From Nemertoderma westbladi (lineage: Eukaryota > Animalia > Xenacoelomorpha), in assembly GCA_032718475.1 (NCBI GenBank), contig JAUCBJ010008014.1, positions 14,318 through 78,317 of the forward strand: DNA of 64,000 bases. Reading direction: 5' to 3'. Numbering within the stretch: the first letter of the stretch is position 1; every line of letters starts with the position of its first letter. Shown here piece after piece: positions 3,116 through 54,540 of the stretch. A program made the position numbers and the translations under genes. The notes under the pieces were generated by a model that saw only the letters and a program-made list of their open reading frames with translations, did not search any database and was not told the DNA's origin.

Positions 3116-3135
3116 TACTCGTCTCTATATCTAAT

Positions 3136-12371: not shown

Positions 12372-12497
12372 CTGACTTGGTACCGTATTGACCTGACCAT
12401 CTTGACCGGTACAAAACGTCCTATAGAAGACATTTTAGAGAAAATGAGCAAAGAAAATATGGCGACAGTGTCAAGTAAAACTGAACGGACACAGACG
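12372..12497 (+). CDS. Possible adhesion GPCR GAIN-region exon
   Basis: ag|LTWYRIDLTILTGTKRPIEDILEKMSKENMATVSSKTERTQT|gtgact; phase 0 matches the 12857 exon; 5' boundary uncertain. Confidence 0.4.
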
Positions 12498-12614
12498 GTG
12501 ACTCAATTTAACTTATATTCGATATACAGTAGTACATGATTAAAATGTATAAATGAGTATCCATAAAATCCTTTCTTAACAAACCGAACGCTGATAAGTT
12601 GAGATAATGTAACA

Positions 12615-12772
12615 AAATTACATACAACATTGCTTGCAAAGGTCACTTTTCAGCGTTAAAGACCCTTGTTTATTTATGTAAACCTCCCACGCTGCGCTCG
12701 CTCGGTACATAAATAAACTCGGGTCATAACGCTGCAAAGCGCTACTTTGCACACAATTATGTGAATAGTTAT
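12615..12772. mobile_element. Short palindromic MITE-like foldback
   Basis: Imperfect inverted arms tgcaaag..cagcgtta.gaccc..gtttatttatgta and tacataaataaac.cgggtc.taacgctg..ctttgca. Confidence 0.6.
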
Positions 12773-12856
12773 ATTTACCGGAGTTTTTTTACTTTTATGC
12801 TACTCCAGTACCAGCAAACAGATGTGTAAGGTTCCATTGGATTTATTTCTATATAG

Positions 12857-13041
12857 GTTATTATAGTTTACAAACTGCGACCACAGGATGTTACCGAGCC
12901 CGTTGTAATTCCTCCTAAAGGCCTAGTTACCGAGAGAGACGGAGTCAACATTCCCGCTTCTGTTATATCAACTATTTCCGCTCAGTATGTCACTGTCGTT
13001 GGTTCGTTCTTCCCGACATTGGAAGCGGCGGATCACAAAAG
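12857..13041 (+). CDS. aGPCR exon, GAIN domain
   Basis: tatag|VIIVYKLRPQDVTEPVVIPPKGLVTERDGVNIPASVISTISAQYVTVVGSFFPTLEAADHK|gttata; phase 2 joins 13608. Confidence 0.75.
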
Positions 13042-23933: not shown

Positions 23934-26900
23934 GTGCTATTTGCTTATAATTTTGAATAATTTAGAAATATATTGTAAAACTTAAATCTTAAGTAACCAT
24001 ATATTTTTCACCTCGGGTAATAAAGAGCAAGAGACAATATTAAAGAAAGAAAATAAAAATTGTTGAAACAAACAGAGAATAACCATTACAAGAGAAGAAA
24101 GTGGTGGAAGATCGAAATATAAGAACGAACAGTTAGTAGGTATAAAAAATGTGACTAAGAGGATATTCAAATGTTTATTAGGAAAATATTTTAGACCGAG
24201 CTGTTATCATTGTAATAAATTGGAAAAAATTGACCTTTTTAGAGCAGATGAAAATTTGTTTTTTGATTTTTTTGAACGAATGTCGAGTGGCACCGAGTTC
24301 CAAATGACAGGACCTCGAAAACTCAGGGATCGTTGGGAAGAGCTAAGATTAAAAAGAGGAGTTGTGAAGTCGCCACGAACAGAAGATGTGGTCCATAAAC
24401 GCCACACGTCATCCATAAACGCCACACGTGGTCCATAAACGCCACACGTGGTCCATATACGCCACACGTGGTCCATAAACTCCAGAAAGACCAAAATGTT
24501 GACAGTTAACTTTGAAAGTCCTCAGCAAGTCTCTGATCGGATGAGCATAAGCTCAAAGGATGGTATGCTTGAGCATGTGGATGACTTCTGTTACCTGGGA
24601 TCATGGATCCGGAAGTCAGGTGAGGACCTCCGAATACGTAAGGGAAAGGCATGGGCAGCCTTGAATAGGCTTTCCAGGATTTGGAAGTCACCGAGAATTA
24701 ATCGGAAACTTAAGGTCCGATTATTTAGAGCAGCAGTAGTTCCAGTACTCCTCTATGGGAGTCCATGCTGGGCTCTAACTGCTGAGGACACCAAATCTCT
24801 GGCCGGCACATTCACAAGAAAGCTAGGCCGGGTTCATTGTGTCAAGTACAATGCACACATCTCCAACCAGACACTATATAACAATGGAGGTGTCTCATTG
24901 GTTCCCCCAAGCTTGACACTAGAACAAAATCGCCTCCGCTTTGCAGGACATTGCTTTCGCCGTGAGGACCCGCCAGTGCATAATCTTGTACTTTGGCAGC
25001 CTCATGGAGTGAATAAGCATGGTGGACAGCCCATGACTTTCTTGAGACGCATCTTAAAGGACACTGGCCTTGAAGATGCGGATGATGTAGCAAATGTCAT
25101 GGGTGATAGGGAGTTGTGGCGGCGCAATTTTGTCGACAAGCCGGCACAGCATTCTTAAAAATGCAGCTGCAATGCAGCATGCCGATACTAGTAGTAGTGG
25201 TCCATAAACGCCACCTCTGGTCCATAAATTTTCAATTTAGGGAAAGGAGCAGGTTACAGTGGCATGTTAATTTAACCAAAACAATAAACTAAACACAATA
25301 GAACAGGTTACAGTTTTATATTTGAGTATAATCAGCTGTTATTTGCGTCTAATTTCCCTGGAGAGGATGAATTATTCTTATAATTAATTATTTATTGCGT
25401 CCAGTCAGTCCCCCCCCCCCCCCCCCCCTCCTATCTGGGTAAATAACAACAACAACATGAACTAAAAAAAGTAAAAGTAAATCCTATGAAAGTAGATCCG
25501 GAAAAGTAAATCCTATGAAAGTAGATCCGGAAAAGTAAATCCTATGAAAGTAGATCCGGAAAAGTAAATCCTATGAATTTCTATGGGAGTATTTTTCTTC
25601 CGCCAGGAAAAAAGTGTTGTCTTACAATACACCTAAAGACTTTGTTTGATAGAAGGCAATTCTCAGAATAAATGCTTTCATTCATTAAACTTCGATCAGC
25701 CAGCCCCATTAGCTTACAGTTCCTTATGAACTACTGCATTATTATATAATCTATTTTTTATACTTTTACAGCTGTCTAACCCGCACGAATTTATCCTTCG
25801 AGTCCTTGGTTTAATTGGAGGAAGTCTGTCGCTGATTGGGCTGGTGCTCACAATTATTACGTATTTACTAGTATGGAGGTTTGTTACCAATACAACTACT
25901 ACTAAGGAACTAGTGGTGCAGCATACGTTGAGGTGTGTCTGATACCTTCTGATACTAACTACTCTACTGTTGTCGTTGGTATTGCGATTACGTTTAAAAA
26001 TTGCGAATCTATACAATTTTCCCTATCTGTATTTCCTTTATATTGTGTGTGTGGCGGAAGGTGGAAGGTGGAAGGTGGAAGGTTTCCATTGCCTAAAGAT
26101 ATTTCTACAGTAGTATTTCTTACAGCACAATATTCCGTATATATAATAACTTATAACTCTTAGGAGGAATTCTTACATTGGGATCCGAGAACCTCTTTCT
26201 ATTGTTCTCCTACATCTTGTAGACTCCAACTTCACTAGCATCGCTTGTTACATCTGACTCCCTCACCTCACTCATCATGTTGTTCTACTATTGTCTGTTT
26301 ATTTTAGATTACTATCGTTTGAACGTAGCTTTGTTCTACTATTGTCTGTTTATTTTAGATTACTATCGTTTGAACGTAGCTTTGTTCTACTATTGTCTGT
26401 TTATTTTAGATTACTATCGTTTGAACGTAGCTTTGTTCTACTATTGTCTGTTTATTTTAGATTACTATCGTTTGAACGTAGCTTTGTTCTACTATTGTCT
26501 GTTTATTTTAGATTACTATCGTTTGAACGTAGCTTTGTTCTACTATTGTCTGTTTATTTTAGATTACTATCGTTTGAACGTAGCTTTGTTCTACTATTGT
26601 CTGTTTATTTTAGATTACTATCGTTTGAACGTAGCTTTGTTCTACTATTGTCTGTTTATTTTAGATTACTATCGTTTGAACGTAGCTTTGTTCTAATATT
26701 GTCTGTTTATTTTAGATTACTATCGTTTGAACGTAGCTTTGTTCTACTATTGTCTGTTTATTTTAGATTACTATCGTTTGAACGTAGCTTTGTTCTAATA
26801 TTGTCTGTTATTTTAGATTACTATTGTTTGAACGTAGCTTTGTTCTACTATTGTCTGTTTATTTTAGATTACTATCGTTTGAACGTAGCTTTGTTCTACT

Positions 26901-29900
26901 ATTGTCTGTTTATTTTAGATTACTATCGTTTGAACGTAGCTTTGTTCTAATATTGTCTGTTATTTTAGATTACTATTGTTTGAACGTAGCTTTGTTCTAC
27001 TATTGTCTGTTTATTTTAGATTACTATCGTTTGAACGTAGCTTTGTTCTACTATTGTCTGTTTATTTTAGATTACTATCGTTTGAACGTAGCTTTGTTCT
27101 ACTATTGTCTGTTTATTTTAGATTACTATCGTTTGAACGTAGCTTTGTTCTACTATTGTCTGTTTATTTTAGATTACTATCGTTTGAACGTAGCTTTGTT
27201 CTACTATTGTCTGTTTATTTTAGATTACTATCGTTTGAACGTAGCTTTGTTCTACTATTGTCTGTTTATTTTATATTACTATCGTTTGAACGTAGCTTTG
27301 TTCTACTATTGTCTGTTTATTTTAGATTACTATCGTTTGAACGTAGCTTTGTTCTACTATTGTCTGTTTATTTTAGATTACTATCGTTTGAACGTAGCTT
27401 TGGTCTACTATTGTCTGTTTATTTTAGATTACTATCGTTTGAACGTAGCTTTGTTCTACTATTGTCTGTTTATTTTAGATTACTATCGTTTGAACGTAGC
27501 TTTGTTCTACTATTGTCTGTTTATTTTAGATTACTATCGTTTGAACGTAGCTTTGTTCTACTATTGTCTGTTTATTTTAGATTACTATCGTTTGAACGTA
27601 GCTTTGTTCTACTATTGTCTGTTTATTTTAGATTACTATCGTTTGAACGTAGCTTTGTTCTAATATTGTCTGTTTATTTTAGATTACTATCGTTTGAACG
27701 TAGCTTTGTTCTACTATTGTCTATTTATTTTAGATTACTATCGTTTGAACGTAGCTTTGTTCTACTATTGTCTGTTTATTTTAGATTACTATCGTTTGAA
27801 CGTAGCTTTGTTCTACTATTGTCTGTTTATTTTAGATTACTATCGTTTGAACGTAGCTTTGTTCTACTATTGTCTGTTTATTTTAGATTACTATCGTTTG
27901 AACGTAGCTTTGTTCTACTATTGTCTGTTTATTTTAGATTACTATCGTTTGAACGTAGCTTTGTTCTACTATTTTCTGTTTATTTTAGATTACTATCGTT
28001 TGAACGCAGCTTTGTTCTAATATTGTCTATTTATTTTAGATTACTATCGTTTGAACGTAGCTTTGTTCTAATATTGTCTGTTTATTTTAGATTACTATTG
28101 TTTGAACGTAGCTTTGTTCTACTATTGTCTGTTATTTTAGATTACTATCGTTTGAACGTAGCTTTGTTCTACTATTGTCTGTTTATTTTAGATTACTATC
28201 GTTTGAACGTAGCTTTGTTCTACTATTGTCTGTTATTTTAGATTACTATTGTTTGAACGTAGCTTTGTTCTACTATTGTCTGTTTATTTTAGATTACTAT
28301 CGTTTGAACGTAGCTTTGTTCTACTATTGTCTATTTATTTTAGATTACTATCGTTTGAACGTAGCTTTGTTCTACTATTGTCTGTTTATTTTAGATTACT
28401 ATCGTTTGAACGTAGCTTTGTTCTACTCTTGTCTATTTATTTTAGATTACTATCGTTTGAACGTAGCTTTGTTCTACTATTGTCTATTTATTTTAGATTA
28501 CTATCGTTTGAACGTAGCTTTGTTCTACTATTGTCTGTTTATTTTAGATTACTATCGTTTGAACGTAGCTTTGTTCTACTATTGTCTATTTATTTTAGAT
28601 TACTATCGTTTGAACGTAGCTTTGTTCTACTATTGTCTATTTATTTTAGATTACTCCGTTTGAACGTAGCTTTGTTCTACTATTGTCTGTTTATTTTAGA
28701 TTACTATCGTTTGAACGTAGCTTTGTTCTACTATTGTCTGTTTATTTTAGATTACTATCGTTTGAACGTAGCTTTGTTCTAATATTGTCTGTTTATTTTA
28801 GATTACTATCGTTTGAACGTAGCTTTGTTCTACTATTGTCTATTTATTTTAGATTACTATCGTTTGAACGTAGCTTTGTTCTACTATTGTCTGTTTATTT
28901 TAGATTACTATCGTTTGAACGTAGCTTTGTTCTACTATTGTCTGTTTATTTTAGATTACTATCGTTTGAACGTAGCTTTGTTCTACTATTGTCTGTTTAT
29001 TTTAGATTACTATCGTTTGAACGTAGCTTTGTTCTACTATTGTCTGTTTATTTTAGATTACTATTGTTTGAACGTAGCTTTGTTCTACTATTGTCTGTTT
29101 ATTTTAGATTACTATCGTTTGAACGTAGCTTTGTTCTACTATTGTCTGTTTATTTTAGATTACTATCGTTTGAACGTAGCTTTGTTCTACTATTGTCTGT
29201 TTATTTTAGATTACTATCGTTTGAACGCAGCTTTGTTCTAATATTGTCTATTTATTTTAGATTACTATCGTTTGAACGTAGCTTTGTTCTACTATTGTCT
29301 GTTTATTTTAGATTACTATCGTTTGAACGTAGCTTTGTTCTACTATTGTCTGTTTATTTTAGATTACTATCGTTTGAACGTAGCTTTGTTCTAATATTGT
29401 CTGTTTATTTTAGATTACTATCGTTTGAACGTAGCTTTGTTCTACTATTGTCTATTTATTTTAGATTACTATCGTTTGAACGTAGCTTTGTTCTACTATT
29501 GTCTGTTTATTTTAGATTACTATCGTTTGAACGTAGCTTTGTTCTAATATTGTCTATTTATTTTAGATTACTATCGTTTGAACGTAGCTTTGTTCTACTA
29601 TTGTCTATTTATTTTAGATTACTCCGTTTGAACGTAGCTTTGTTCTACTATTGTCTGTTTATTTTAGATTACTATCGTTTGAACGTAGCTTTGTTCTACT
29701 ATTGTCTATTTATTTTAGATTACTATCGTTTGAACGTAGCTTTGTTCTACTATTGTCTATTTATTTTAGATTACTATCGTTTGAACGTAGCTTTGTTCTA
29801 CTATTGTCTATTTATTTTAGATTACTATCGTTTGAACGTAGCTTTGTTCTACTATTGTCTGTTTATTTTAGATTACTATCGTTTGAACGTAGCTTTGTTC

Positions 29901-32900
29901 TACTATTGTCTATTTATTTTAGATTACTATCGTTCGAACGTAGCTTTGTTCTACTATTGTCTGTTTATTTTAGATTACTATCGTTTGAACGTAGCTTTGT
30001 TCTACTATTGTCTGTTTATTTTAGATTACTATCGTTTGAACGTAGCTTTGTTCTACTATTGTCTGTTTATTTTAGATTACTATCGTTTGAACGTAGCTTT
30101 GTTCTACTATTGTCTGTTTATTTTAGATTACTATCGTTTGAACGTAGCTTTGTTCTACTATTGTCTGTTTATTTTAGATTACTATCGTTTGAACGTAGCT
30201 TTGTTCTACTATTGTCTGTTTATTTTAGATTACTATCGTTTGAACGTAGCTTTGTTCTACTATTGTCTGTTTATTTTAGATTACTATCGTATGAACGTAG
30301 CTTTGTTCTACTATTGTCTATTTATTTTAGATTACTATCGTTTGAACGTAGCTTTGTTCTACTATTGTCTGTTTATTTTAGATTACTATCGTTTGAACGT
30401 AGCTTTGTTCTACTATTGTCTATTTATTTTAGATTACTATCGTTTGAACGTAGCTTTGTTCTACTATTGTCTATTTATTTTAGATTACTATCGTTTGAAC
30501 GTAGCTTTGTTCTACTATTGTCTGTTTATTTTAGATTACTATCGTTTGAACGTAGCTTTGTTCTACTATTGTCTGTTTATTTTAGAATACTATCGTTTGA
30601 ACGTAGCTTTGTTCTACTATTGTCTGTTTATTTTAGATTACTATCGTTTGAACGTAGCTTTGTTCTACTATTGTCTATTTATTTTAGATTACTATCGTTT
30701 GAACGTAGCTTTGTTCTACTATTGTCTGTTTATTTTAGATTACTATCGTTTGAACGTAGCTTTGTTCTACTATTGTCTGTTTATTTTAGATTACTATCGT
30801 TTGAACGTAGCTTTGTTCTACTATTGTCTGTTTATTTTAGATTACTATCGTTTGAACGTAGCTTTGTTCTCATCAATCTTTGCTTTGCGTTGTTTGTTGC
30901 GATTCTGCTGTTCCTAATTGGAGTGGAAGGTCACGGGTTTCTAAATGTTAGTAGACATGTCTCTATATAACATTCTGGTTGTACTTCTGTAACAGTTCTA
31001 CTTTATTCCTTACAGGATTCTGGTTGTACTTCTTTAACAGTTCTACTTTATTCCTTACAGGATTCTGGTTGTACTTCTTTAACAGTTCTACTTTATTCCT
31101 TACAGGATTCTGGTTGTACTTCTTTAACAGTTCTACTTTATTCCTTACAGGATTCTGGTTGCCCTTCTGTAACAGTTCTACTTTATTCCTTACACAGGAT
31201 TCTGGTTGTACTGCTGTAACAGTTCTACTTTATTCCTTACAGGATTCTGGTTGTACTGCTGTAGCAGTTCTACTTTATTCCTTACAGGATTCTGGTTGCC
31301 CTTATGTAACAGTTCTACTTTATTCCTTACACAGGATTCTGGTTGTACTGCTGTAACAGTTCTACTTTATTCCTTACAGGATTCTGGTTGTACTTCTGTA
31401 ACAGTTCTACTTTATTCCTTACAGGATTCTGGTTGTACTTCTTTAACAGTTCTACTTTATTCCTTACAGGATTCTGGTTGCCCTTCTGTAACAGTTCTAC
31501 TTTATTCCTTACACAGGATTCTGGTTGTACTGCTGTAACAGTTCTACTTTATTCCTTACAGGATTCTGGTTGTACTGCTGTAGCAGTTCTACTTTATTCC
31601 TTACAGGATTCTGGTTGCCCTTATGTAACAGTTCTACTTTATTCCTTACACAGGATTCTGGTTGTACTGCTGTAACAGTCCTACTTTATTCCTTACAGGA
31701 TTCTGGTTGCCCTTCTGTAACAATTCTACTCTATTCCTTACAGGATTCTGGTTGCCCTTCTGTAACAGTTCTACTTTATTCCTTACACAGGATTCTGGTT
31801 GCACTGCTGTAACAGTTCTACTTTATTCCTTACAGGATTCTGGTTGCCCTTCTGTAACAGTTCTACTTTATTCCTTACAGGATTCTGGTTGTACTTCTGT
31901 AACAGTTCTACTTTATTCCTTACACAGGATTCTGGTTGCACTGCTGTAACAGTTCTACTTTATTCCTTACAGGATTCTTGTTGTACTGCTGTAACAGTTC
32001 TACTTTATTCCTTACAGGATTCTGGTTGTACTGCTGTAACAGTTCTACTTTATTCCTTACAGGATTCTGGTTGTACTTCTGTAACAGTTCTACTTTATTC
32101 CTTACAGGATTCTGGTTGCCCTTCTGTAATAGTTCTACTTTATTCCTTACAGGATTCTGGTTGCCCTTCTGTAACAGTTCTACTTTATTCCTTACAGGAT
32201 TCTGGTTGTACTTCTGTAACAGTTCTACTTTATTCCTTACAGGATTCTGGTTGCCCTTCTGTAACAGTTCTACTTTATTCCTTACACAGGATTCTGGTTG
32301 CACTGCTGTAACAGTTCTACTTTATTCCTTACAGGATTCTGGTTGCACTGCTGTAACAGTTCTACTTTATTCCTTACAGGATTCTGGTTGTACTGCTGTA
32401 ACAGTTCTACTTTATTCCTTACAGGATTCTGGTTGTACTTCTGTAACAGTTCTACTTTATTCCTTACAGGATTCTGGTTGCCCTTATGTAACAGTTCTAC
32501 TTTATTCCTTACACAGGATTCTGGTTGTACTGCTGTAACAGTCCTACTTTATTCCTTACAGGATTCTGGTTGCCCTTCTGTAACAATTCTACTCTATTCC
32601 TTACAGGATTCTGGTTGCCCTTCTGTAACAGTTCTACTTTATTCCTTACAGGATTCTGGTTGCCCTTCTGTAACAGTTCTACTTTATTCCTTACACAGGA
32701 TTCTGGTTGTACTGCTGTAACAGTTCTACTTTAATCCTTACAGGATTCTGGTTGTACTTCTGTTGCAGTTCTACTTTATTCCTTACAGGATTCTTGTTGT
32801 ACTTCTGTAACAGTTCTACTTTATTCCTTACAGGATTCTGGTTGCCCTTCTGTAACAGTTCTACTTTATTCCTTACAGGATTCTGGTTGCCCTTCTGTAA

Positions 32901-35900
32901 CAATTCTACTCTATTCCTTACAGGATTCTGGTTGCCCTTCTGTAACAGTTCTACTTTATTCCTTACACAGGATTCTGGTTGTACTGCTGTAACAGTTCTA
33001 CTTTAATCCTTACAGGATTCTGGTTGTACTTCTGTAACAGTTCTACTTTATTCCTTACAGGATTCTGGTTGCCCTTCTGTAACAGTTCTACTTTATTCCT
33101 TACACAGGATTCTGGTTGTACTGCTGTAACAGTTCTACTTTAATCCTTACAGGATTCTGGTTGTACTTCTGTTGCAGTTCTACTTTATTCCTTACAGGAT
33201 TCTGGTTGTACTGCTGTAACAGTCCTACTTTATTCCTTACAGGATTCTGGTTGCCCTTCTGTAACAATTATACTCTATTCCTTACAGGATTCTGGTTGCC
33301 CTTCTGTAACAGTTCTACTTTATTCCTTACAGGATTCTGGTTGCCCTTCTGTAACAGTTCTACTTTATTCCTTACAGGATTCTGGTTGCCCTTCTGTAAC
33401 AGTTCTACTCTATTCCTTACAGGATTCTGGTTGCCCTTCTGTAACAGTTCTACTTTATTCCTTACAGGATTCTGGTTGCCCTTCTGTAACAGTTCTACTT
33501 TATTCCTTACAGGATTCTGGTTGCCCTTCTGTAACAGTTCTACTCTATTCCTTACAGGATTCTGGTTGCCCTTCTGTAACAGTTCTACTTTATTCCTTAC
33601 ACAGGATTCTGGTTGCCCTTCTGTAACAGTTCTACTTTATTCCTTACAGGATTCTGGTTGCCCTTCTCTAACAGTTCTACTTTATTCCTTACAGGATTCT
33701 GGTTGCCCTTCTGTAACAGTTCTACTTTATTCCTTACAGGATTCTGGTTGCCCTTCTGTAACAGTTCTACTTTATTCCTTACAGGATTCTGGTTGCCCTT
33801 CTGTAACAGTTCTACTCTATTCCTTACAGGATTCTGGTTGCCCTTCTGTAACAGTTCTACTCTATTCCTTACAGGATTCTGGTTGCCCTTCTGTAACAGT
33901 TCTACTTTATTCCTTACACAGGATTCTGGTTGCCCTTCTGTAACAGTTCTACTTTATTCCTTACAGGATTCTGGTTGCCCTTCTCTAACAGTTCTACTTT
34001 ATTCCTTACAGGATTCTGGTTGCCCTTCTGTAACAGTTCTACTTTATTCCTTACAGGATTCTGGTTGCCCTTCTGTAACAGTTCTACTTTATTCCTTACA
34101 GGATTCTGGTTGCCCTTCTGTAACAGTTCTACTCTATTCCTTACAGGATTCTGGTTGCCCTTCTGTAACAGTTCTACTTTATTCCTTACAGGATTCTGGT
34201 TGCCCTTCTGTAACAGTTATACTTTATTCCTTACAGGATTCTGGTTGCCCTTCTGTAACAGTTCTACTTTATTCCTTACAGGATTCTGGTTGCCCTTCTG
34301 TAACAGTTCTACTTTATTCCTTGCAGGATTCTGGTTGCCCTTCTCTAACAGTTCTACTTTATTCCTTACAGGATTCTGGTTGCACTGCTGTAGCAGTTCT
34401 ACTTTATTCCTTACAGGATTCTGGTTGCCCTTCTGTAACAGTTCTACTTTATTCCTTACAGGATTCTGGTTGCCCTTCTGTAACAATTCTACTCTATTCC
34501 TTACAGGATTCTGGTTGCCCTTCTGTAACAGTTCTACTTTATTCCTTATAGGATTCTGGTTGCCCTTCTGTAACAGTTCTACTTTATTCCTTACAGGATT
34601 CTGGTTGCCCTTCTGTAACAGTTCTACTTTATTCCTTACAGGATTCTGGTTGCCCTTCTGTAACAGTTCTACTGTATTCCTTACAGGATTCTAGTTGCCC
34701 TTCTGTAACAGTTATACTTTATTCCTTACAGGATTCTGGTTGCCCTTCTGTGACAGTTCTACTTTATTCCTTACAGGATTCTGGTTGTACTGCTGTTACA
34801 GTTCTACTTTATTCCTTACAGGATTCTGGTTGCACTGCTGTAACAGTTCTACTTTATTCCTTACAGTATTCTGGTTGTACTGCTGTAACAGTTCTACTTT
34901 ATTCCTTACAGGATTCTGGTTGCCCTTCTGTAACAGTTATACTTTATTCCTTACAGGATTCTGGTTGCCCTTCTGTAACAGTTCTACTTTATTCCTTACA
35001 GGATTCTGGTTGCCCTTCTGTAACAGTTCTACTTTATTCCTTACAGGATTCTGGTTGCCCTTCTGTAACAGTTATACTTTATTCCTTACAGGATTCTGGT
35101 TGCCCTTCTGTAACAGTTCTACTTTATTCCTTACAGGATTCTGGTTGCCCTTCTGTAACAGTTCTACTTTATTCCTTGCAGGATTCTGGTTGCCCTTCTC
35201 TAACAGTTCTACTTTATTCCTTACAGGATTCTGGTTGCACTGCTGTAGCAGTTCTACTTTATTCCTTACAGGATTCTGGTTGCCCTTCTGTAACAGTTCT
35301 ACTTTATTCCTTACAGGATTCTGGTTGCCCTTCTGTAACAGTTCTACTTTATTCCTTACAGGATTCTGGTTGCACTTCTGTAGCAGTTCTACTTTATTCC
35401 TTACAGGATTCTGGTTGCCCTTCTGTAACAATTCTATTTTATTCCTTACAGGATTCTGGTTGCCCTTCTGTAACAGTTCTACTTTATTCCTTACAGGATT
35501 CTGGTTGCCCTTCTGTAACAGTTCTACTTTATTCCTTACAGGATTCTGGTTGTACTGCTGTAACAGTTCTACTTTATTCCTTACAGTATTCTGGTTGCAC
35601 TGCTGTAACAGTTCTAATTTATTCCTTACATGATTCTGGTTGTACTGCTGTAGCAGTTCTACTTTATTCCTTACGGGATTCTGGTTGTACTGCTGTAACA
35701 GTTCTAATTTATTCCTTACAGGATTCTGGTTGCCCTTCTGTAACAGTTCTACTGTATTCCTTACAGGATTCTGGTTGCCCTTCTCTAACAGTTCTACTTT
35801 ATTCCTTACAGGATTCTGGTTGTACTGCTGTAGCAGTTCTACTTTATTCCTTACGGGATTCTGGTTGTACTGCTGTAACAGTTCTACTTTATTCCTTGCA

Positions 35901-38900
35901 GGATTCTGGTTGCCCTTCTCTAACAGTTCTACTTTATTCCTTACAGGATTCTGGTTGCACTGCTGTAGCAGTTCTACTTTATTCCTTACAGGATTCTGGT
36001 TGCCCTTCTGTAACAGTTCTACTTTATTCCTTACATGATTCTGGTTGCCCTGCTGTAACAGTTCTACTTTATTCCTCACAGGATTCTGGTTGCCCTTCTG
36101 TAACAGTTCTACTTTATTCCTTACAGGATTCTGGTTGCCCTTCTGTAACAGTTCTACTTTATTCCTTACAGGATTCTGGTTGCACTTCTGTAGCAGTTCT
36201 ACTTTATTCCTTACAGGATTCTGGTTGCCCTTCTGTAACAATTCTATTTTATTCCTTACAGGATTCTGGTTGCCCTTCTGTAACAGTTCTACTTTATTCC
36301 TTACAGGATTCTGGTTGCCCTTCTGTAACAGTTCTACTTTATTCCTTACAGTATTCTGGTTGCACTGCTGTAACAGTTCTAATTTATTCCTTACATGATT
36401 CTGGTTGTACTGCTGTAGCAGTTCTACTTTATTCCTTACAGGATTCTGGTTGCCCTTCTGTAACAGTTATACTTTATTCCTTACAGGATTCTGGTTGCCC
36501 TTCTGTAACAGTTCTACTTTATTCCTCACAGGATTCTGGTTGCCCTTCTGTAACAGTTCTACTTTATTCCTCACAGGATTCTGGTTGCCCTTCTGTAACA
36601 GTTCTACTTTATTCCTTACAGGATTCTGGTTGCACTTCTGTAGCAGTTCTACTTTATTCCTTACAGGATTCTGGTTGTACTTCTACTTTATTCCTTACAG
36701 GATTCTGGTTGCCCTTCTGTAACAGTTCTACTTTATTCCTTACAGGATTCTGGTTGCCCTTCTGTAACAATTCTATTTTATTCCTTACAGGATTCTGGTT
36801 GCCCTTCTGTAACAGTTCTACTTTATTCCTTACAGGATTCTGGTTGCCCTTCTGTAACAGTTCTACTTTATTCCTTACAGTATTCTGGTTGCACTGCTGT
36901 AACAGTTCTAATTTATTCCTTACATGATTCTGGTTGTACTGCTGTAGCAGTTCTACTTTATTCCTTACAGGATTCTGGTTGTACTGCTGTAACAATTCTA
37001 TTTTATTCCTTACAGGATTCTGGTTGCCCTTCTGTAACAGTTCTACTTTATTCCATACAGGTTTCTGGTTGCCCTTCTGTAACAGTTCTACTTTATTCCT
37101 TACAGGATTCTGGTTGCCCTTCTGTAACAGTTCTAATTTATTCCTTACAGGATTCTGGTTGTACTTCTGTAGCAGTTCTACTTTATTCCTTACAGGATTC
37201 TGGTTGTACTGCTGTAGCAGTTATACTTTATTCCTTACAGGATTCTGGTTGCCCTTCTGTAACAGTTCTACTTTATTCCTTACAGGATTCTGGTTGCCCT
37301 TCTGTAACAGTTCTACTTTATTCCTTACAGGATTCTGGTTGTACTGCTGTAACAGTTCTACTTTATTCCTTACAGGATTCTGGTTGCCCTTCTGTAGCAG
37401 TTCTACTTTATTCCTTACAGGATTCTGGTTGCCCTTCTGTAACAGTTCTACTTTATTCCTTACAGGATTCTGGTTGCACTGCTGTAACGGTTCTACTTTA
37501 TTCCTTACAGGATTCTGGGTGCCCTTCTGTAACAGTTCTACTTTATTCCTTACAGGATTCTGGTTGCACTGCTGTAGCAGTTCTACTTTATTCCTTACAG
37601 GATTCTGGTTGTACTGCTGTAACAGTTCTACTTTATTCCTCACAGGATTCTGGTTGCCCTTCTGTAACAGTTCTACTTTATTCCTCACAGGATTCTGGTT
37701 GCCCTTCTGTAACAGTTCTACTTTATTCCTTACAGGATTCTGGTTGTACTGCTGTAGCAGTTATACTTTATTCCTTACAGGATTCTGGTTGCCCTTCTGT
37801 AACAGTTCTACTTTATTCCTTACAGGATTCTGGTTGTACTGCTGTAGCAGTTATACTTTATTCCTTACAGGATTCTGGTTGCCCTTCTGTAACAGTTCTA
37901 CTTTATTCCTTACAGGATTCTGGTTGCCCTTCTGTAACAGTTCTACTTTATTCCTTACAGGATTCTGGTTGTACTGCTGTAACAGTTCTACTTTATTCCT
38001 TACAGGATTCTGGTTGCCCTTCTGTAGCAGTTCTACTTTATTCCTTACAGGATTCTGGTTGCCCTTCTGTAACAGTTCTACTTTATTCCTTACAGGATTC
38101 TGGTTGCACTGCTGTAACGGTTCTACTTTATTCCTTACAGGATTCTGGGTGCCCTTCTGTAACAGTTCTACTTTATTCCTTACAGGATTCTGGTTGCACT
38201 GCTGTAGCAGTTCTACTTTATTCCTTACAGGATTCTGGTTGTACTGCTGTAACAGTTCTACTTTATTCCTCACAGGATTCTGGTTGCCCTTCTGTAACAG
38301 TTCTACTTTATTCCTCACAGGATTCTGGTTGCCCTTCTGTAACAGTTCTACTTTATTCCTTACAGGATTCTGGTTGCCCTTCTGTAACAGTTCTAGTTTA
38401 TTCCTTACAGGATTCTGGTTGCCCTTCTGTAACAGTTCTACTTTATTCCTTACAGGATTCTGGTTGTACTGCTGTAACAGTTCTACTTTATTCCTTACAG
38501 GATTCTGGTTGCCCTTCTGTAACAGTTCTACTTTATTCCTTACAGGATTCTGGTTGCCCTTCTGTAACAGTTCTACTGTATTCCTTACAGGATTCTGGTT
38601 GCCCTTCTGTGACAGTTCTACTTTATTCCTTACAGGATTCTGGTTGTACTTCTGTAACAGTTATATTTTATTCCTTACAGGATTCTGGTTGTACTGCTGT
38701 AACAGTTCTACTTTATTCCTTACATGATTCTGGTTGTACTGCTGTAACAGTTCTACTTTATTCCTTACAGGATTCTGGTTGCCCTTCTGTAACAGTTCTA
38801 CTTTATTCCTTACAGGATTCTGGTTGTACTGCTGTAACAGTTCTACTTTATTCCTCACAGGATTCTGGTTGCCCTTCTGTAACAGTTCTAGTTTATTCCT

Positions 38901-41900
38901 TACAGGATTCTGGTTGCCCTTCTGTAACAATTATATTTTATTCCTTACAGGATTCTTGTTGTACTTCTGTAGCAGTTCTACTTTATTCCTTACAGGATTC
39001 TGGTTGCCCTTCTGTAACAGTTCTACTTTATTCCTTACAGGATTCTGGTTGCACTTCTGTAGCAGTTCTACTTTATTCCTTACAGGATTCTGGTTGCCCT
39101 TCTGTAACAATTCTATTTTATTCCTTACAGGATTCTGGTTGCCCTTCTGTAACAGTTCTACTTTATTCCTTACAGGATTCTGGTTGCCCTTCTGTAACAG
39201 TTCTACTTTATTCCTTACAGGATTCTGGTTGTACTGCTGTAACAGTTCTACTTTATTCCTTACAGGATTCTGGTTGCCCTTCTGTAACAGTTCTACTTTA
39301 TTCCTTACAGGATTCTGGTTGCCCTTCTGTAACAGTTCTACTTTATTCTTTACAGGATTCTGGTTGCACTGCTGTAGCAGTCCTTCTACATTATTTCTTC
39401 CTCTCCGTGTTCACTTGGATGTTGAACGAAGGAATTCTCTATTATCTCAACGTAGTCGTTATATTTGAACGGGAGGTTTCCTGGAAATGGATTTATTTAG
39501 GTATCGGTTGGGGTGCGCCGTTATTGGTAGTTGGTATTTCGGCTGGTGCCAGCCAACTCAATGGATACTCGTACGAACGGCCAGGGGGAGATGTTATGTA
39601 AGTATTTATCTTTGGGATATAATAAAGTATTATTTTAATATTTGTTTAACTAAAATAGATATGCCGACTATGTTTATTTTAGTTTATTTTCTACTTTATA
39701 TACCTCAACAGTAGGTTCAGTTTAGTTTATTTTCTACTTTATATACCTCAACATTAGGTTTAGTTTATTTTATACTTTATATACCTCAACATTAGGTTTA
39801 GTTTAGTTTATTTTATACTTTATATACCTCATCAGTAGGTTTAGTTTAGTTTATTTTCTACTTTATATACCTCAACAGTAGGTTTAGTTTAGTTTATTTT
39901 CTACTTTATATACCTCAACATTAGGTTTAGTTTAGTTTATTTTCTACTTTATATACCGCAACATTAGGTTTAGTTTAGTTAATTTTTACTTTATATACCT
40001 CAACAGTAGGTTTAGTTTAGTTTATGTTCTACTTTATATAGCTCAACATTAGGTTTAGTTTATTTTCTACTTTATATACCTCAACATTAGGTTTAGTTTA
40101 GTTTATTTTCTACTTTATATACCGCAACATTAGGTTTAGTTTAGTTAATTTTTACTTTATATACCTCAACAGTAGGTTTAGTTTAGTTTATGTTCTACTT
40201 TATATAGCTCAACATTAGGTTTAGTTTAGTTTATTTTCTACTTTATATACATCAACAGTAGGTTTAGTTTAGTTTATTTTCTACTTTATATACCTCAACA
40301 TTAGGTTTAGTTTAGTTTATTTTCTACTTTATATACCTCAACATTAGGTTTAGTTTAGTTTATTTTCTACTTTATATACCTCAACATTAGGTTTAGTTTA
40401 GTTTATTTTCTACTTTATATACCTCAACAGTAGGTTCAGTTTAGTTTATTTTCTACTTTATATACCTCAACATTAGGTTTAGTTTATTTTATACTTTATA
40501 TACCTCAACATTAGGTTTAGTTTAGTTTATTTTCTACTTTATATACCTCAACAGTAGGTTTAGTTTAGTTTATTTTCTACTTTATATACCTCAACATTAG
40601 GTTTAGTTTAGTTTATTTTCTACTTTATATACCTCAACATTAGGTTTAGTTTAGTTTATTTTCTACTTTATATACCTCAACAGTAGGTTCAGTTTAGTTT
40701 ATTTTCTACTTTATATACCTCAACATTAGGTTTAGTTTAGTTTATTTTCTACTTTATATACCTCAACATTAGGTTTAGTTTAGTTTATTTTCTACTTTAT
40801 ATACCTCAACAGTAGGTTCAGTTTAGTTTATTTTCTACTTTATATACCTCAACATTAGGTTTAGTTTAGTTTATTTTCTACTTTATATACCTCAACAGTA
40901 GGTTCAGTTTAGTTTATTTTCTACTTTATATACCTCAACATTAGGTTTAGTTTATTTTATACTTTATATACCTCAACATTAGGTTTAGTTTAGTTTATTT
41001 TCTACTTTATATACCTCAACAGTAGGTTTAGTTTAGTTTATTTTCTACTTTATATACCTCAACATTAGGTTTAGTTTAGTTTATTTTCTATTTTATATAC
41101 CTCAACAGTAGGTTCAGTTTAGTTTATTTTCTACTTTATAACCTCAACATTAGGTTTAGTTTAGTTTATTTTCTACTTTATATACCTCAACATTAGGTTT
41201 AGTTTTGTTTATTTTCTACTTTATATACCTCAACAGTAGGTTTAGTTTAGTTCATTTTCTACTTTATATACCTCAACAGTAGGTTTAGTTTAGTTTATTT
41301 TCTACTTTATATACCTCAACAGTAGGTTTAGTTTATTTTCTACTTTATATACCTCAACATTAGGTTTAGTTTAGTTTATTTTCTACTTTATATACCTCAA
41401 CATTAGGTTTAGTTTAGTTTATTTTCTACTTTATATACCTCAACATTAGGTTTAGTTTAGTTTATTTTCTACTTTATATACCTCAACAGTAGGTTTAGTT
41501 TAGTTTATTTTCTACTTTATATACCTCAACATTAGGTTTAGTTTAGTTTATTTTCTACTTTATATACCTCAACAGTAGGTTTAGTTTAGTTTATTTTCTA
41601 CTTTATATACCTCAACAGTTAAGAAAAAATTTAGTGTATTGTATACTTTATGTAACTCGACAGTTGGTTTTATTTAGTGTTTTGTATACTTTATGATTCC
41701 TTTCCAGATGCTGGTTAGATCCTTCCGTTGGTGTTTTGTATGCCTTCATAGGCCCCGCAGTAGCTATAGCCGTGGCTAACATGGTGGTTATTGTTATTGT
41801 ACTCAGAACGATGTTTAAAAGCTCGGCTTTTAATAAAAAATCGGAGATAGAACAGATCAAGTGAGTTACATTGAACAGATCAAGTGAGTTACATTGAATT

Positions 41901-44900
41901 ATCTCCTGGATAGAACAGATCAAGTGAGTTACATTGAATTATCTCCTGGATAGAACAGATCAAGTGAGTTACATTGAACAGATCAAGTGAGTTACATTGA
42001 ATTATCTCCTGGATAGAACAGATCAAGTGAGTTACATTGAATTATCTCCTGGATAGAACAGATCAAGTGAGTTACATTGAATTATCTCCTGGATAGAACA
42101 GATCAAGTGAGTTACATTGAATTATCTCCTGGATAGAACAGATAAAGTGAGTTACATTGAATTATCTCCTGGATAGAACAGATCAAGTGAGTTACATTGA
42201 ATTATCTCCTGGATAGAACAGATCAAGTGAGTTACATTGAATTATCTCCTGGATAGAACAGATCAAGTGAGTTACATTGAATTATCTCCTGGATAGAACA
42301 GATCAAGTGAGTTACATTGAACAGATCAAGTGAGTTACATTGAATTATCTCCTGGATAGAACAGATCAAGTGAGTTACATTGAACAGATCAAGTGAGTTA
42401 CATTGAATTATCTCCTGGATAGAACAGATCAAGTGAGTTACATTGAATTATCTCCTGGATAGAACAGATCAAGTGAGTTACATTGAATTATCTCCTGGAT
42501 AGAACAGATCAAGTGAGTTACATTGAATTATCTCCTGGATAGAACAGATCAAGTGAGTTACATTGAACAGATCAAGTGAGTTACATTGAATTATCTCCTG
42601 GATAGAACAGATCAAATGAGTTACATTGAATTATCTCCTGGATAGAACAGATCAAGTGAGTTACATTGAATTATCTCCTGGATAGAACAGATCAAGTGAG
42701 TTACATTGAATTATCTCCTGGATAGAACAGATCAAGTGAGTTACATTGAATTATCTCCTGGATAGAACAGATCAAGTGAGTTACATTGAATTATCTCCTG
42801 GATAGAACAGATCAAGTGAGTTACATTGAATTATCTCCTGGAATGTTTTAATTCAGGTACATATCGCCAAATATGTAAAAACAAGACAATATAAACATAA
42901 CAATTTCGTGTAGAAATAGCTGAGATATCGTCGTTGGGAAGCTGCATGATTTAGACTGCGAGGCTATTTAATTGCTAAACCACATCGTAATAAACCCCCG
43001 CAACTCATCATGGGTTGATATTCTGAGGATTTGTAAATATTGTCTCTCACTAGCATCGCGTTGTATTTATTGTCTTGGAAATCATTTTTTCAATATTCAC
43101 CATTTCGTTAGTAATACAGTACAATAAACCCAATAACATTCAACGCTATTGCTGCTGGAAAAATATTCTTTTTGTGATTTCAACCACACCTACAAACACC
43201 TACACAATTTAATTATAAATAGAGATGTTTATGATATTAATATTAATATTATTGCATTTGTGTTTAACATCCATAGATTGTATAAATCATTAAGTAATTA
43301 AACAGGACTAAGGATGAACCAACTCCGTGGTGTAGGTGTTAGCATACCTGAACGTTTATCGGGAGACGCGGGTTCGATCCCCGCTGGTGGCGAATTCATT
43401 TTTTCCGCTCCATTTGCTATAGAGTTGGATCATCCTTAGTCCTGTTTAATTACTTAATAAAATATTAATATTAATATTATATTATAATATTATTTTATGC
43501 ATTTTATTTTATTTATTTTATTTTATTTTTCATATTTTATGTCTGCACTTTTAGCTTTAGGTGCGTTTTTCGATATTAACTTTTCTGTTTTTGTGTTGTA
43601 GGGGAGGCGTTTGGAGTTTATGCGTTATTGTTCCAGTTTTCGGAGTCTCTTGGGTGATCGGTGTTTTTGCTGTAACTGAAGAGGCAGTCGTGTTACAATA
43701 TTTATTCAATATATTAATCTCGACTCAGGTTAGTGAAATTATATATTTGGGTTTCTTATTGCACCATCAGCTCGGGTTAGCCGACCTCTAATCCGAATGT
43801 CTCTAATTATTATCATTTTCGCTCGGTTCAGTTTAGTAAATTAAGCAATGACGTCCAGGTGGGATCGAACTGGTGACCTCCGGGTTGCTCTAACCATTCA
43901 GCTAACGGCTCAGGTAAAAGATAGACCCGGAAATACTATCTGATACCTTGTATGTCCGCAATTGACCTCCTCATTGCCTCCCATCTGCCAATGCCATCAT
44001 ATGCTGCCACTGTGCTCAACCCTACAGTACTTGGCCGTCTTTAACCAACCGTCTACAATGAAAGGATAGTGTGTATATTAACCATGAACCATCTCGGTCA
44101 TTTGATTCATTCTACCCTTTCATTGTAGCGAGTGGTTAAAGGCGGCCAAGTACTGTAGGATTGAGCCCAGTGGCAGCATATGATGGTATTGACAGATAGG
44201 AGGCCATGAGGAGGTAAATTGCGGACATACAAGGTATCAGATAGTATTTCCGGGTCTATCTTTTACCTGAGCCGTTAGCTGAATGGTTATACCAACCCGG
44301 ACCAGTTCGATCCCACCTGGACGTCATTGTCGAATTCGCTAAACTGCGCCCAACGAATATTATAGTAATATCTAATATAAAACCACTAATTTTGCCTTAA
44401 ATACCTCTAATATCCCATTTCCTGTAAACAACATAACAAGAAAATGGTATTTTAAGTTTCGCCATTTTGTTTAACACAATGAAATATTAGAGTAAAATCA
44501 CTAGTAACTACTTATGAAACGCGACCATTTCGTACATGTTCAGTATGTTACGGATTAACGTTAGGTTATTAACTGTTCATTCACTCTGGTTGAATTCAAC
44601 TACTCCAATGATACGATTACAAATTGATTTAAGTCTCAAACATTTTGTTTTATTAAATTGTCTGTCAATAGTATTATTAAATCATGAAAAAAAAACAATA
44701 AATAGTTGCGTTACCTGCAATGATGTTATTATTCTGTGGCGCGGATTACCATAATGCGGCTATTATTATTATGTAACACATATAATGTGGCAACGAATAT
44801 CGCTACATCAACATTTACAATAAATAATATACATAAATACAGAAAACAAATTTTGTAGATCTTTATGGACCAGTTTTCTGGGAATTTATCAGACTCGTAG

Positions 44901-47900
44901 TTATTGTCGGACAGACTAACTCGACTATTCTCGAACTAACACACGTCACCAACTCGACTATTCTCGAACTAACTCACGTCACCAACTCGACTATTCTCGA
45001 ACTAACTCACGTCACTAACTCGACTATTCTCGACCTAACTCACGTCACTAACTCGACTATTCTCGATCTAACTCACGTCACTAACTCGAATATTGTTCAA
45101 TAAACTACAATTAGTTAACTATTTTCTTAAACAATAATTTACTATGTTCTCTTTTTGTATTTCAGGGAGTTTTTATATTTATTTTTCATTGTCTCATGGC
45201 GAAACCTGTGCGAGACGCGTTGCGGAGGAAAGGATACTTAGCGAAAGGGATTAGAGGACCTCGATCTGGTACAAGTAGTGCGGTAAGTAATAGAAAGGAT
45301 TAGAAGCAACAGATCTGGTACAAGCGGTGCGGTAAGTAATAGAAAGGATTAGAGGCAACAGATCTGGTACAAGCAGTGCGGTAAGTAATAGAAAGGATTA
45401 GAGGCAACAGATCTGGTACAAGCAGTGCGGTAAGTAATAGAAAGGATTAGAGGCAACAGATCTGGTACAAGCAGTGCGGTAAGTAATAGAAAGGATTAGA
45501 GGCAACAGATCTGGTACAAGCAGTGCGGTAAGTAATAGAAAGGATTAGAGGCAACAGATCTGGTACAAGTAGTGCGGTAAGTAATAGAAAGGATTAGAAG
45601 CAACAGATCTGGTACAAGCGGTGCGGTAAGTAATAGAAAGGATTAGAGGCAACAGATCTGGTACAAGCAGTGCGGTAAGTAATAGAAAGGATTAGAGGCA
45701 ACAGATCTGGTACAAGCAGTGCGGTGAGTAATAGAGAGGATTAGAGGCAACAGATCTGGTACAAGCAGTGCGGTAAGTAATAGAAAGGATTAGATGCAAC
45801 AGATCTGGTACAAGCAGTGCGGTAAGTAATAGAAAGGATTAGAGGCAACAGATCTGGTACAAGCGGTGCGGTAAGTAATAGAAAGGATTAGAGGCAACAG
45901 ATCAGTGCGGTAAGTAATAGAAAGGATTAGAGGCAACAGATCTGGTACAAGCAGTGCGGTAACTAATAGAAAGGATTAGAGGCAACAGATCTGGTACAAG
46001 CAGTGCGGTAAGTAATAGAAAGGATTAGAGGCAACAGATCTGGTACAAGCAGTGCGGTAAGTAATAGAAAGGATTAGAGGCCCTCGATCTGGTACAAGTA
46101 GTGCGGTAAGTAATAGAAAGGATTAGAGGCAACAGATCTGGTACGAGCAGTGCGGTAAGTAATAGAAAGGATTAGAGGCAACAGATCTGGTACAAGCAGT
46201 GCGGTAAGTAATAGAGAGGATTAGATGCAACAGATCTGGTGCAAGCAGTGTGGTAAGTAATAGAAAGGATTAGAGGCTACAGATCTGGTACAAGCAGTGC
46301 GGTAAGTAATAGAAAGGATTAGAGGCAACAGATCTGGTACAAGCAGTGCGGTAAGTAATAGAAAGGATTAGAGGCAACAGATCTGGTACAAGCAGTGCGG
46401 TAAGTAATAGAAAGGATTAGAGGCAACAGATCTGGTACAAGTAGTGCAGTAAGTAATAGAAAGGATTAGAGGCAACAGATCTGGTACAAGTAGTGCAGTA
46501 AGTAATAGAAAGGATTAGAGGCAACAGATCTGGTACAAGCAGTGCGGTAAGTAATAGAAAGGATTAGAGGCAACAGATCTGGTACAAGCAGTGCGGTAAG
46601 TAATAGAAAGGATTAGAGGCAACAGATCTGGTACAAACAGGGCGGTAAGTAATAGAAAGGATTAGAGGCAACAGATCTGGTACAAGCAGTGCTGTAAGCT
46701 GATTAGAAATATGGAACAAATTATAATTTTGAATGGGAGAGTCTTTAATGCTCATCAATCCAACGAATACCTGTTCGCATCATAAACAGAAAGGAGACAC
46801 AGCAAGACTCGCCTCAGTCTGCTGGAATCAATTACTGGGCTGATTTACATGCTAATAAACTCCTCCCTGCTTACTGTATAGTTGTCACATAGGAGTAGGC
46901 CAGAACCAAAGTTCGGCTAACAGATACACTTTGCTGTGTGACAATACCGCATGGCAGCTTTGTGAGAGCGCAATGGTGACCTATTACATAGGGTTTGGGT
47001 TACAGCGCTCCGAAAACACGGAGGGCGCTGTTAAAGAGAAGTCAAAACGTGACGAAAATCCGCCGTGCTGTCACTGCGAATGTAAATATGTGAACCGGGA
47101 TTAAGATAAAAGTTTATTTCATTAGATTTTTTAAATGTTTTTAATTTAATTAAAGTTTAATTGATTCGAATAGGCCGATCCCCCGACGTTGTCTACCACG
47201 GCTCGGAAGAGTTCGGCATTCCCGTCGTCTTCATCCAATCCCGATTCGATGACGAAGAAATACAGTAAAAGTAATTGGTCCAATCACAAGATCGAGTTGA
47301 ATACGAGATCCCCGACTCCTCCAATGAACGCTGCCGGTGATTCGAACTCAATCAAGCCGTTGATAGAGATCCAACCAGCTGTTATCGCAACCACTGGGGT
47401 CAAACAGCAGTTAGATATTGACGAATTAGCTGATAGTTCAGGTAGAAATAAACATGATCTACTACTGGAAACAACTAATACTTAATTGTTTACTTTTTGT
47501 GTTTTGTTAGTAAATTTGTAGTTGCTTAACATTAATCTTTAAGATTTATTACTAATTGGTTTTGTTGAAAACGGCTTAGCGAAAGTCGCCAGTTTTTATT
47601 TGGAGGTTTTTTTGAGACGTTTTTTCTTCTTTTTTTCAGACGGGTAAACTGACCCAAATAACGTCCCACATATTACCTGAGCCAATTAATACCGATTGAA
47701 TATTAACATTTATCTCTTCAAAATAAAAAGTTTGTGGAACAAAATACAATTTCAAACTGTTAAATATCGAAGTTACGATTTCTTCTGGAATCCATTTTTT
47801 TCATACAGATAACGTTATGTCATTCAATTATTTTTACTCCGTTTTTATTGAACGTTTTTTTGGGACAGTTTCTTGTCTGAAAAAAGTGGAAAATCGATCC

Positions 47901-54454: not shown

Positions 54455-54540
54455 AGGTTACAGACACGATGGGTTACAGACACGATGGGTTACAGACACG
54501 ATGGGTTACAGACACGATGCCGCGATGGGTTACAGAGACG
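54455..54540. repeat. 16-bp tandem repeat, about 5 copies
   Basis: Unit ggttacagacacgatg, following gggaaaggagca. Confidence 0.8.

What the first reader, a model, noticed from the sequence alone, without database searches (positions are those of the whole stretch)
26279..46700. Introns built from tandem amplifications of the gene's own splice junctions
Seen: four unrelated minisatellites each have a unit that spans a real exon-intron boundary of the aGPCR. The 51-bp and 45-bp units are acceptor + exon start, and the true exon is the LAST unit. The 40-bp and 49-bp units are exon end + donor, and the true exon end is the FIRST unit. The pre-mRNA therefore carries over 300 near-perfect duplicate splice sites. 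Three further arrays (1-2802, 3136-10175, 39676-41619) also contain donor- or acceptor-like motifs. Inference: repeated origin exactly at junctions suggests a process tied to splice sites, such as splicing- or R-loop-linked breakage with microhomology slippage, or retention of junction arrays. Correct mRNA would need strict exon definition or stepwise splicing. I know of no named system like this, but cannot search the literature.
Basis: partly seen in the sequence, partly recalled or inferred. Interest (0 to 1): 0.9.

Follow-up and report, generated by a model that had tools for sequence, protein, structure and literature searches.

The report
Giant splice-junction "mirage" minisatellites
Several introns of an animal cell-surface receptor gene are filled with 27 to about 186 head-to-tail copies of their own exon edge plus splice signal; this repeat type is already known from lancelets ("mirages") and human genes, and the cell likely still splices at the genuine site, so this is a very large and dense example rather than a new system.

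Summary
An adhesion GPCR gene (14 exons seen, all GT-AG, open 835-aa frame, GPS + 7tm_2) carries two acceptor arrays (51 bp x90, 45 bp x~186) and two donor arrays (40/23 bp x27, 49 bp x30). Together they hold 315 intact decoy sites. Short-read contigs from two studies hold both acceptor arrays, so these are not an assembly artefact; the donor arrays and all array lengths were not checked in reads. The claim of no named system is wrong: these are 'mirage' minisatellites (amphioxus) and F7/CBS-type VNTRs (human), and this scan has found them before in annelid, urchin, shark and other invertebrate genomes. That the true exon is first or last follows from the geometry of a tandem duplication. Junction enrichment is P=0.003 under uniform placement but 0.10-0.36 if ancestral introns were 200-400 nt or shorter, so a junction-targeted mutational process is not shown. 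No RNA run was listed, so site choice is untested. What is unusual: the size (one 8.4-kb intron is 99.7% array), both acceptor units being in-frame and stop-free, and a further array of about 64 whole copies of a predicted 36-nt exon.

The parts
1..2802 (+). 56-bp array, donor-like (ACA|GTAAGT), about 50 copies; its true exon would lie before the window
   Evidence: 46 donors at or above the median true-site score; junction not verifiable
3128..10177 (+). 34/66-bp two-tier array: 34-bp unit = acceptor + 3 exon bases; 66-bp unit = acceptor + whole predicted 36-nt exon + donor bases, about 64 extra exon copies
10139..10174 (+). predicted 36-nt phase 1-1 exon of the GAIN region, last unit of the 66-bp array; a decayed extra copy follows at about 10187-10240
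   Evidence: frame, loose match to the helix in homologues, decayed copy; no RNA
12427..13714 (+). three GAIN-region exons (12427-12497, 12857-13041, 13608-13714), no arrays at their junctions
   Evidence: no Pfam hit for the two tested
14311..21230 (+). 62-bp array, 111 identical units, wholly intronic, ends 74 nt before an acceptor; no splice signal
21305..21462 (+). GPS exon
   Evidence: Pfam GPS E=5e-14
25772..25878 (+). TM1 exon
26280..30870 (+). A51: 51-bp acceptor mirage (28 intron + 23 exon bases), 90 units, 7-nt microhomology, unit in-frame and stop-free
   Evidence: present in runs X1-X3
30841..30946 (+). TM2 exon, begins in the last A51 unit
   Evidence: one X1 contig spans 30831-30991
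30972..39381 (+). A45: 45-bp acceptor mirage (20 intron + 25 exon bases), about 186 units; 8384 of 8409 intron bases; unit in-frame and stop-free
   Evidence: present in runs X1-X3
39356..39597 (+). TM3-TM4 exon, begins in the last A45 unit
   Evidence: Pfam 7tm_2 E=2e-19
39672..41707 (+). 43-bp array of the intron's last 43 bases; the true acceptor is its diverged end unit; 45 units read TAG|GT
41708..41860 (+). TM5 exon, ends in the first D40 unit
   Evidence: Pfam 7tm_2 E=6e-6
41846..42842 (+). D40: 40/23-bp donor mirage, 27 units; later donors would bring in a stop
43602..43728 (+). TM6-TM7 exon, no array at its junctions
   Evidence: Pfam 7tm_2 E=8e-6
45166..45282 (+). TM7/helix 8 exon, ends in the first D49 unit
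45243..46698 (+). D49: 49-bp donor mirage, 30 units; array copies diverged from the exon copy; later donors would bring in a stop
47174..52774 (+). three predicted cytoplasmic-tail exons (47174-47441, 51703-51846, 52086-52774 with stop), no junction arrays
   Evidence: open frame, GT-AG; no homology support

Best explanation
These are real 'mirage' minisatellites: short pieces spanning an exon-intron boundary of an adhesion GPCR gene were duplicated in tandem, likely by microhomology-guided slippage, likely grew to tens or hundreds of copies by unequal exchange, and are predicted to be skipped because only the copy next to the full exon pairs with a strong partner site across a short exon. Shown: the units, their match to the junctions, a 7-nt microhomology at A51, homogenised variants that spare the exon copy, and the lack of strong partner sites inside the arrays. 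Inferred: the slippage origin, the growth mechanism and the splice choice. The clustering at junctions is most likely a mix of short ancestral introns, loss of duplications that fall wholly inside exons, and a locus very prone to minisatellite growth (74% of 1-46698 is array). A mild true bias toward intron ends is not excluded.
For:: A51 begins and ends on a shared 7-nt word, exactly as one slippage event predicts; only 25, 87 and 401 non-array bases remain in three introns; repeated blocks of unit variants (for example 0-27-28-7-21-14 twice in A45) typical of unequal exchange; only 5 of 184 A45 copies and 0 of 29 D49 copies equal the exon copy, the boundary exclusion described for mirages (PMC3087553, passages); with a matrix from the gene's own 13 donors and 14 acceptors, A51 and A45 hold 0 donors, and D40 and D49 hold 0 acceptors, at or above the median true score; tandem joints of both acceptor arrays in DNA runs of two studies; enrichment not significant if introns are capped at 400 nt (P>=4 of 10 = 0.10) or 200 nt (0.36). 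Literature: first-site use shown by mutation in human F7 (PMC1557585); normal mRNA reported across amphioxus mirages.
Against: Under uniform placement over the collapsed gene the excess is real (P=0.003 for 4 of 10, 2e-4 for 5, 2e-5 for 6), and with the 400-nt cap 5 or 6 of 10 still give 0.026 and 0.004. Two arrays with no junction also end 71-74 nt from an acceptor. The nearest A51 decoys would give exons of 157-259 nt, well within normal size, with an identical acceptor and no stop, so exon definition alone does not clearly exclude them. The best branch-point-like words of that intron lie before the first decoy, not before the true site (weak, since 3 other true acceptors also lack such words). 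The 66-bp array holds both strong acceptors (123) and strong donors (63). Clean microhomology was shown only for A51; for A45, D40 and D49 the ends are diverged.
Confidence: 0.72

Rival explanations
1. Arrays are nucleated preferentially at splice junctions by a transcription- or splicing-linked lesion (polymerase pausing, R-loop, or aborted strand invasion by spliced cDNA whose homology ends at the exon edge) and are then repaired by microhomology slippage.
For: 6 of 10 arrays inside the gene span or abut a junction and 2 more end within 74 nt of an acceptor; P=0.003 to 2e-5 under uniform placement. Mirages recur across taxa.
Against: Significance depends on the intron-length null. The gene was chosen for the pattern. 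No array of 5 or more copies lies in 52775-64000, which holds about four exons of a neighbouring gene. An unchecked note from this scan reports no excess over random placement genome-wide in another invertebrate (e1-7908399).
Confidence: 0.15
2. Some arrays are used: in-frame decoy acceptors would add 17 or 15 residues per step to loop regions of the receptor, and the about 64 in-frame copies of the 36-nt exon would act as alternative cassettes.
For: 24 of 89 A51 and 56 of 174 A45 acceptors give an open, in-frame exon. 60 of 61 parsed extra micro-exon copies are stop-free, all are 36 nt, and they encode more than ten peptide variants; spacers of 30 nt are likely too short to splice. Human 6-16 and CBS use the nearest decoys (PMC1557585 introduction).
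Against: Two units being 3n and stop-free is not rare by chance (about 0.06 by rough estimate, my inference). The inserts are hydrophobic and would likely disturb TM2/TM3. Micro-exon copies have weaker donors (GTAGGC, GTCGGC) than the end copy (GTATGT) and a competing frameshifting donor. The micro-exon itself is only predicted.
Confidence: 0.08
3. The long introns are removed stepwise through regenerated splice sites.
For: The 43-bp array has TAG|GT in 45 units.
Against: A51 and A45 read AG|AT and AG|GA, so no donor is regenerated. The 43-bp AG|GT sites score low as both acceptor (-3.7, -5.1) and donor (1.5, -0.9) against medians of 5.3 and 7.6.
Confidence: 0.03
4. The arrays are assembly artefacts or have been greatly inflated by the assembler.
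For: The 62-bp array has 111 identical units. Lengths were not checked with long reads, and the donor arrays were not checked in reads.
Against: A51 and A45 joints and many unit variants are in short-read contigs of runs X1-X3, with single unit contigs at depth 1002 and 450 against 58.5 for the unique exon in X1. The arrays hold 15-53 unit types (D40: 4) in ordered blocks.
Confidence: 0.02

Closest known systems
Amphioxus 'mirage' minisatellites (Adh3, globins BflGb6/BflGb9, troponin C, PGBD5); PMC3087553 passages, PMC3902484 passage. The original Adh3 paper (Canestro 2002) was not held and is known here only through those citations
   Same: The unit spans an exon-intron boundary, on either the 5' or the 3' side, and copies the AG/GT signal. 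Unit length lies within the 10-72 bp quoted for Adh3. Inner copies are homogenised and boundary copies are excluded.
   Different: Far larger: up to about 186 copies and 8.4 kb, against 3-6 units in the BflGb6 example. At least four, probably six or seven, sit in one gene. One array copies a whole predicted exon. The closest protein found is 58% identical, so the lineage is not established.
Human donor-spanning VNTRs: F7 intron 7 (37 bp x5-9), CBS intron 13, interferon-inducible 6-16 intron 2, lamin B2, PDGF intron 4; PMC1557585 abstract, introduction and discussion read
   Same: D40 and D49 have the same build: the first unit holds the authentic donor and identical pseudo-donors follow (26-29 here, 25 in 6-16).
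   Different: Those examples are one per gene and on the donor side. The acceptor-side arrays here are several times longer, and no splicing data exist for this gene.
Intron gain by tandem duplication of an AG/GT proto-splice site (Rogers model, as summarised in PMC3087553)
   Same: An intron made almost wholly of tandem copies that contain exon sequence (A45 intron, 99.7%).
   Different: Half of each unit is intron-derived pyrimidine tract with no counterpart in homologous proteins, so the intron existed first and was inflated, not created.

Membership tests
Mirage minisatellite | Tandem repeat whose unit spans an exon-intron boundary | tested here: met
   for A51, A45, D40, D49; boundaries rest on frame and homology
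Mirage minisatellite | Copies keep AG/GT splice signals | tested here: met
   89 of 90, 174 of 185, 26 of 27, 30 of 30
Mirage minisatellite | Concerted evolution inside the array, boundary unit excluded | tested here: met
   A45: 5 of 184 copies equal the exon copy; D49: 0 of 29. Younger-looking A51: 77 of 89; D40: 25 of 26
Mirage minisatellite | Normal mRNA made from the genuine site | not testable with these tools
   No RNA holder listed
Mirage minisatellite | Length instability between alleles or cells | not testable with these tools
   Short-read contigs show the arrays but not their length
F7/CBS-type donor VNTR | First unit holds the authentic donor, identical pseudo-donors follow in the intron | tested here: met
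   D40 and D49
Recursive-splicing array | Acceptor directly followed by a regenerated strong donor (AG|GT) | tested here: not met
   A51 AG|AT, A45 AG|GA; the 43-bp array has AG|GT but weak scores
Intron gain by tandem duplication (Rogers) | Unit wholly exon-derived, new intron position | tested here: not met
   Intronic half of the unit has no counterpart in homologues; intron positions in relatives were not compared
Adhesion GPCR (host gene) | GPS motif followed by a secretin-family 7TM | tested here: met
   Pfam GPS E=5e-14 and 7tm_2 on four exons; best named hits ADGRD1 and ADGRL-like at 51-56%

The most novel reading that the evidence does not exclude
In this lineage minisatellites are seeded at splice junctions by a splicing-linked process and grow until they are the intron. 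Some of the copies are used: in-frame decoy acceptors and about 64 variant copies of a 36-nt GAIN-domain exon give a repeat-encoded, NMD-invisible source of receptor isoforms.
Probability: 0.1. Interest if true: 0.75.

Novelty: new member of a known kind. Interest (0 to 1): 0.32.

Why it matters
As it stands this is an extreme natural test case for splice-site choice. One gene has 88 and 173 intact decoy acceptors in front of two exons, and the nearest are in-frame, so mis-splicing there would not be hidden by nonsense-mediated decay. One RNA data set would measure acceptor fidelity directly; the experimental work I read covers only the donor side, with 5-9 copies (F7). It also shows that an intron can grow to 8.4 kb, all but 25 nt of it from its own junction, with no transposon. 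It is not a new kind of element.

Tried and rejected
No whole genome is held, so no genome-wide enrichment test; the scan has no other notes on this genome. No RNA holder listed: no evidence either way on expression or site use. Run X4 laid nothing on 30790-31030, which proves nothing. The donor arrays could not be checked in reads and remain unconfirmed outside the assembly. Lineage: exon 39356-39595 found nothing closer than 58% among the 150 best of 1614 hits and 4 named hits at 51-56%; the nested gene found no homologue; the atlas did not answer. Literature: six answered searches listed no genome-wide test of junction enrichment and no acceptor-side array of this size; that is limited to the open library, and supplements were not read. 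Canestro 2002 and Zhuo 2007 were not held. The passages shown from PMC10078293 held no junction-spanning example. Rejected: inserted satellite (units contain conserved TM2/TM3 coding motifs), intron gain, recursive splicing, and 'first/last copy' as independent evidence. Local alignments seeking end microhomology for A45, D40 and D49 were inconclusive. The splice-site matrix is trained on 13-14 sites and includes the true sites when scoring their own copies, so only the absence of partner sites is taken from it.
Full report
Observation. Tandem Repeats Finder and unit parsing confirm four arrays at the stated places: 51 bp x90 (26280-30870), 45 bp x about 186 (30972-39381), 40/23 bp x27 (41846-42842) and 49 bp x30 (45243-46698). 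Intact AG or GT copies number 89, 174, 26 and 30, true sites included, so 315 decoys.

Host gene. Fourteen exons between 10139 and 52774, all with GT-AG introns, join into an 835-aa frame with one terminal stop. Separate exons match Pfam GPS (E=5e-14) and 7tm_2; 4 of the 9 exons scanned had no hit. Best named relatives are ADGRD1 and ADGRL-like proteins at 51-56%, and nothing closer than 58% was among the 150 best representatives, so the lineage is not established. The end-copy assignment is supported by homology: the penultimate acceptors add 9-17 gap positions against 4 of 4 homologues, and both junction regions align without insertion in the 21 homologues displayed of 45 aligned. The three tail exons and the 36-nt exon rest mainly on frame.

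Are the arrays real? Contigs of four DNA-type runs were laid on 30790-31030. In X1 one 161-nt contig spans the exon at depth 58.5, while single unit contigs reach 1002 (A51) and 450 (A45). Loose ends show the exon-to-intron tandem joint of A51 in X1 and X2 and of A45 in X1, X2 and X3. An X3 loose end matches the unique 5' flank of A51 in 28 of 30 letters shown. X4 laid nothing. X1 and X2/X3 are two studies, one of which may be the assembly's own sample. Array lengths and the donor arrays are unchecked. No RNA run was listed.

Anatomy. The A51 unit is 28 intron + 23 exon bases, and the two ends share a 7-nt word, as a single slippage event predicts. The A45 unit is 20 intron + 25 exon bases and leaves 25 unique intron bases of 8409. 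D40 and D49 start in the exon end and run into the intron. In any such duplication only the last acceptor copy is followed by the whole exon and only the first donor copy is preceded by it, so that pattern is geometry. Variant blocks recur in order. The arrays have drifted from the exon copy to different degrees: 77 of 89 (A51), 25 of 26 (D40), 5 of 184 (A45) and 0 of 29 (D49) copies equal it. That points to separate origins at different times, with the coding copy likely held by selection.

Beyond the four. The 43-bp array ends at the acceptor of 41708, whose last 44 nt are a diverged unit (score 49; 0 of 2000 shuffles; next best of the other 13 acceptors 34). The 3128-10177 array has a 34-bp tier (acceptor + 3 exon bases) and a 66-bp tier that copies the acceptor plus a whole predicted 36-nt exon about 64 times with 30-nt spacers. 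Of 61 parsed extra copies 60 are stop-free, and a decayed further copy lies just downstream. The 56-bp array is donor-like but its exon is outside the window. The 62-bp and 33-bp arrays span no junction but end 74 and 71 nt before acceptors.

More than chance? I collapsed each array to one unit (18,307 nt, 27 junctions) and placed the 10 arrays with period of 20 or more and 5 or more copies at random, leaving out the 56-bp array, whose junction is unseen. P is 0.003 for 4 or more hits, 2e-4 for 5 and 2e-5 for 6. If introns are capped at 400, 200 or 100 nt, to allow for later insertions, P for 4 becomes 0.10, 0.36 and 0.78, and for 6 it becomes 0.004, 0.047 and 0.28. Three array-bearing introns collapse to 44, 117 and 422 nt, so the short-intron null is realistic, though others are long. 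The gene was also selected for the pattern. A junction bias is possible but not shown. The last 11 kb, with about four exons of a neighbouring gene, has no such array.

How is it spliced? Inferred, not shown. With a matrix from the gene's own sites, the two acceptor arrays hold no donor and the two donor arrays no acceptor at or above the median true score, so decoys define no short exon of their own. Later donors would bring in a stop within a few codons. Two points strain this model. Both acceptor units are multiples of three and stop-free, so the nearest decoys give normal-sized in-frame exons (24 of 89 and 56 of 174 are open). The 66-bp array holds strong sites of both kinds. Recursive splicing is not supported: A51 and A45 regenerate no GT, and the AG|GT sites of the 43-bp array score low.

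What is known. Repeats spanning exon-intron boundaries were named mirages in amphioxus Adh3 and are described for globins, with both boundaries affected, concerted evolution that spares the boundary unit, and apparently normal splicing (PMC3087553, passages; PMC3902484, one passage). Human F7 intron 7 has the donor form, where mutation shows the first site is chosen; 6-16 and CBS also use the nearest decoys (PMC1557585, abstract, introduction and discussion). The Adh3 and Zhuo papers were not held. Earlier notes of this scan list the same thing in annelid, urchin, shark and other invertebrate genomes (unchecked). Six answered searches listed no genome-wide enrichment test and no acceptor array of this size.

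Verdict. A real, very large and dense set of mirage minisatellites: a new member of a known kind. Interest 0.32, for its scale and its value as a test of acceptor fidelity. The novel reading (junction-seeded arrays, partly used as isoform sources) has about 10% probability.

Noticed in passing
window 5665-10240: About 64 tandem copies of a whole predicted 36-nt exon with acceptor and donor, nearly all in-frame, 30-nt spacers, more than ten peptide variants; a decayed copy follows the end exon. The case that exon definition explains least well.
   Followed up: partly
window 14311-21230: 62-bp array of 111 perfectly identical units (6.9 kb), intronic, ending 74 nt before an acceptor; very recent growth or assembly consensus.
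   Followed up: no
window 21986-22771, minus strand: Intronless 261-aa ORF nested in an intron of the receptor; weak PPPDE/DUF6540 hits below cut-off, hydrophobic C-terminal part; no homologue found.
   Followed up: partly
window 44915-45094: 33-bp array rich in the branch-point-like word CTAAC, ending 71 nt before the acceptor at 45166.
   Followed up: no
window 26255-26279: Four branch-point-like words lie just before the first decoy acceptor of the 51-bp array, 4.5 kb from the true one.
   Followed up: partly
window 49420-49827: PWWP-domain ORF (E=6e-13) inside an intron of the receptor, probably carried by a mobile element.
   Followed up: no
window 24448-25158, 53700-53970, 62800-63500: Related fragments that look like a non-LTR retroelement 3' end (DUF6451 hit); the 20-bp repeat at 23504-23734 recurs beside the first of them.
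   Followed up: no
window 52253-52550: 39-bp coding repeat (13 residues x7.6) in the predicted cytoplasmic tail.
   Followed up: no
window 60770-62620, minus strand: About four exons of a single-pass membrane protein with a tyrosine-motif tail; no junction arrays; no Pfam hit for the membrane exon.
   Followed up: partly
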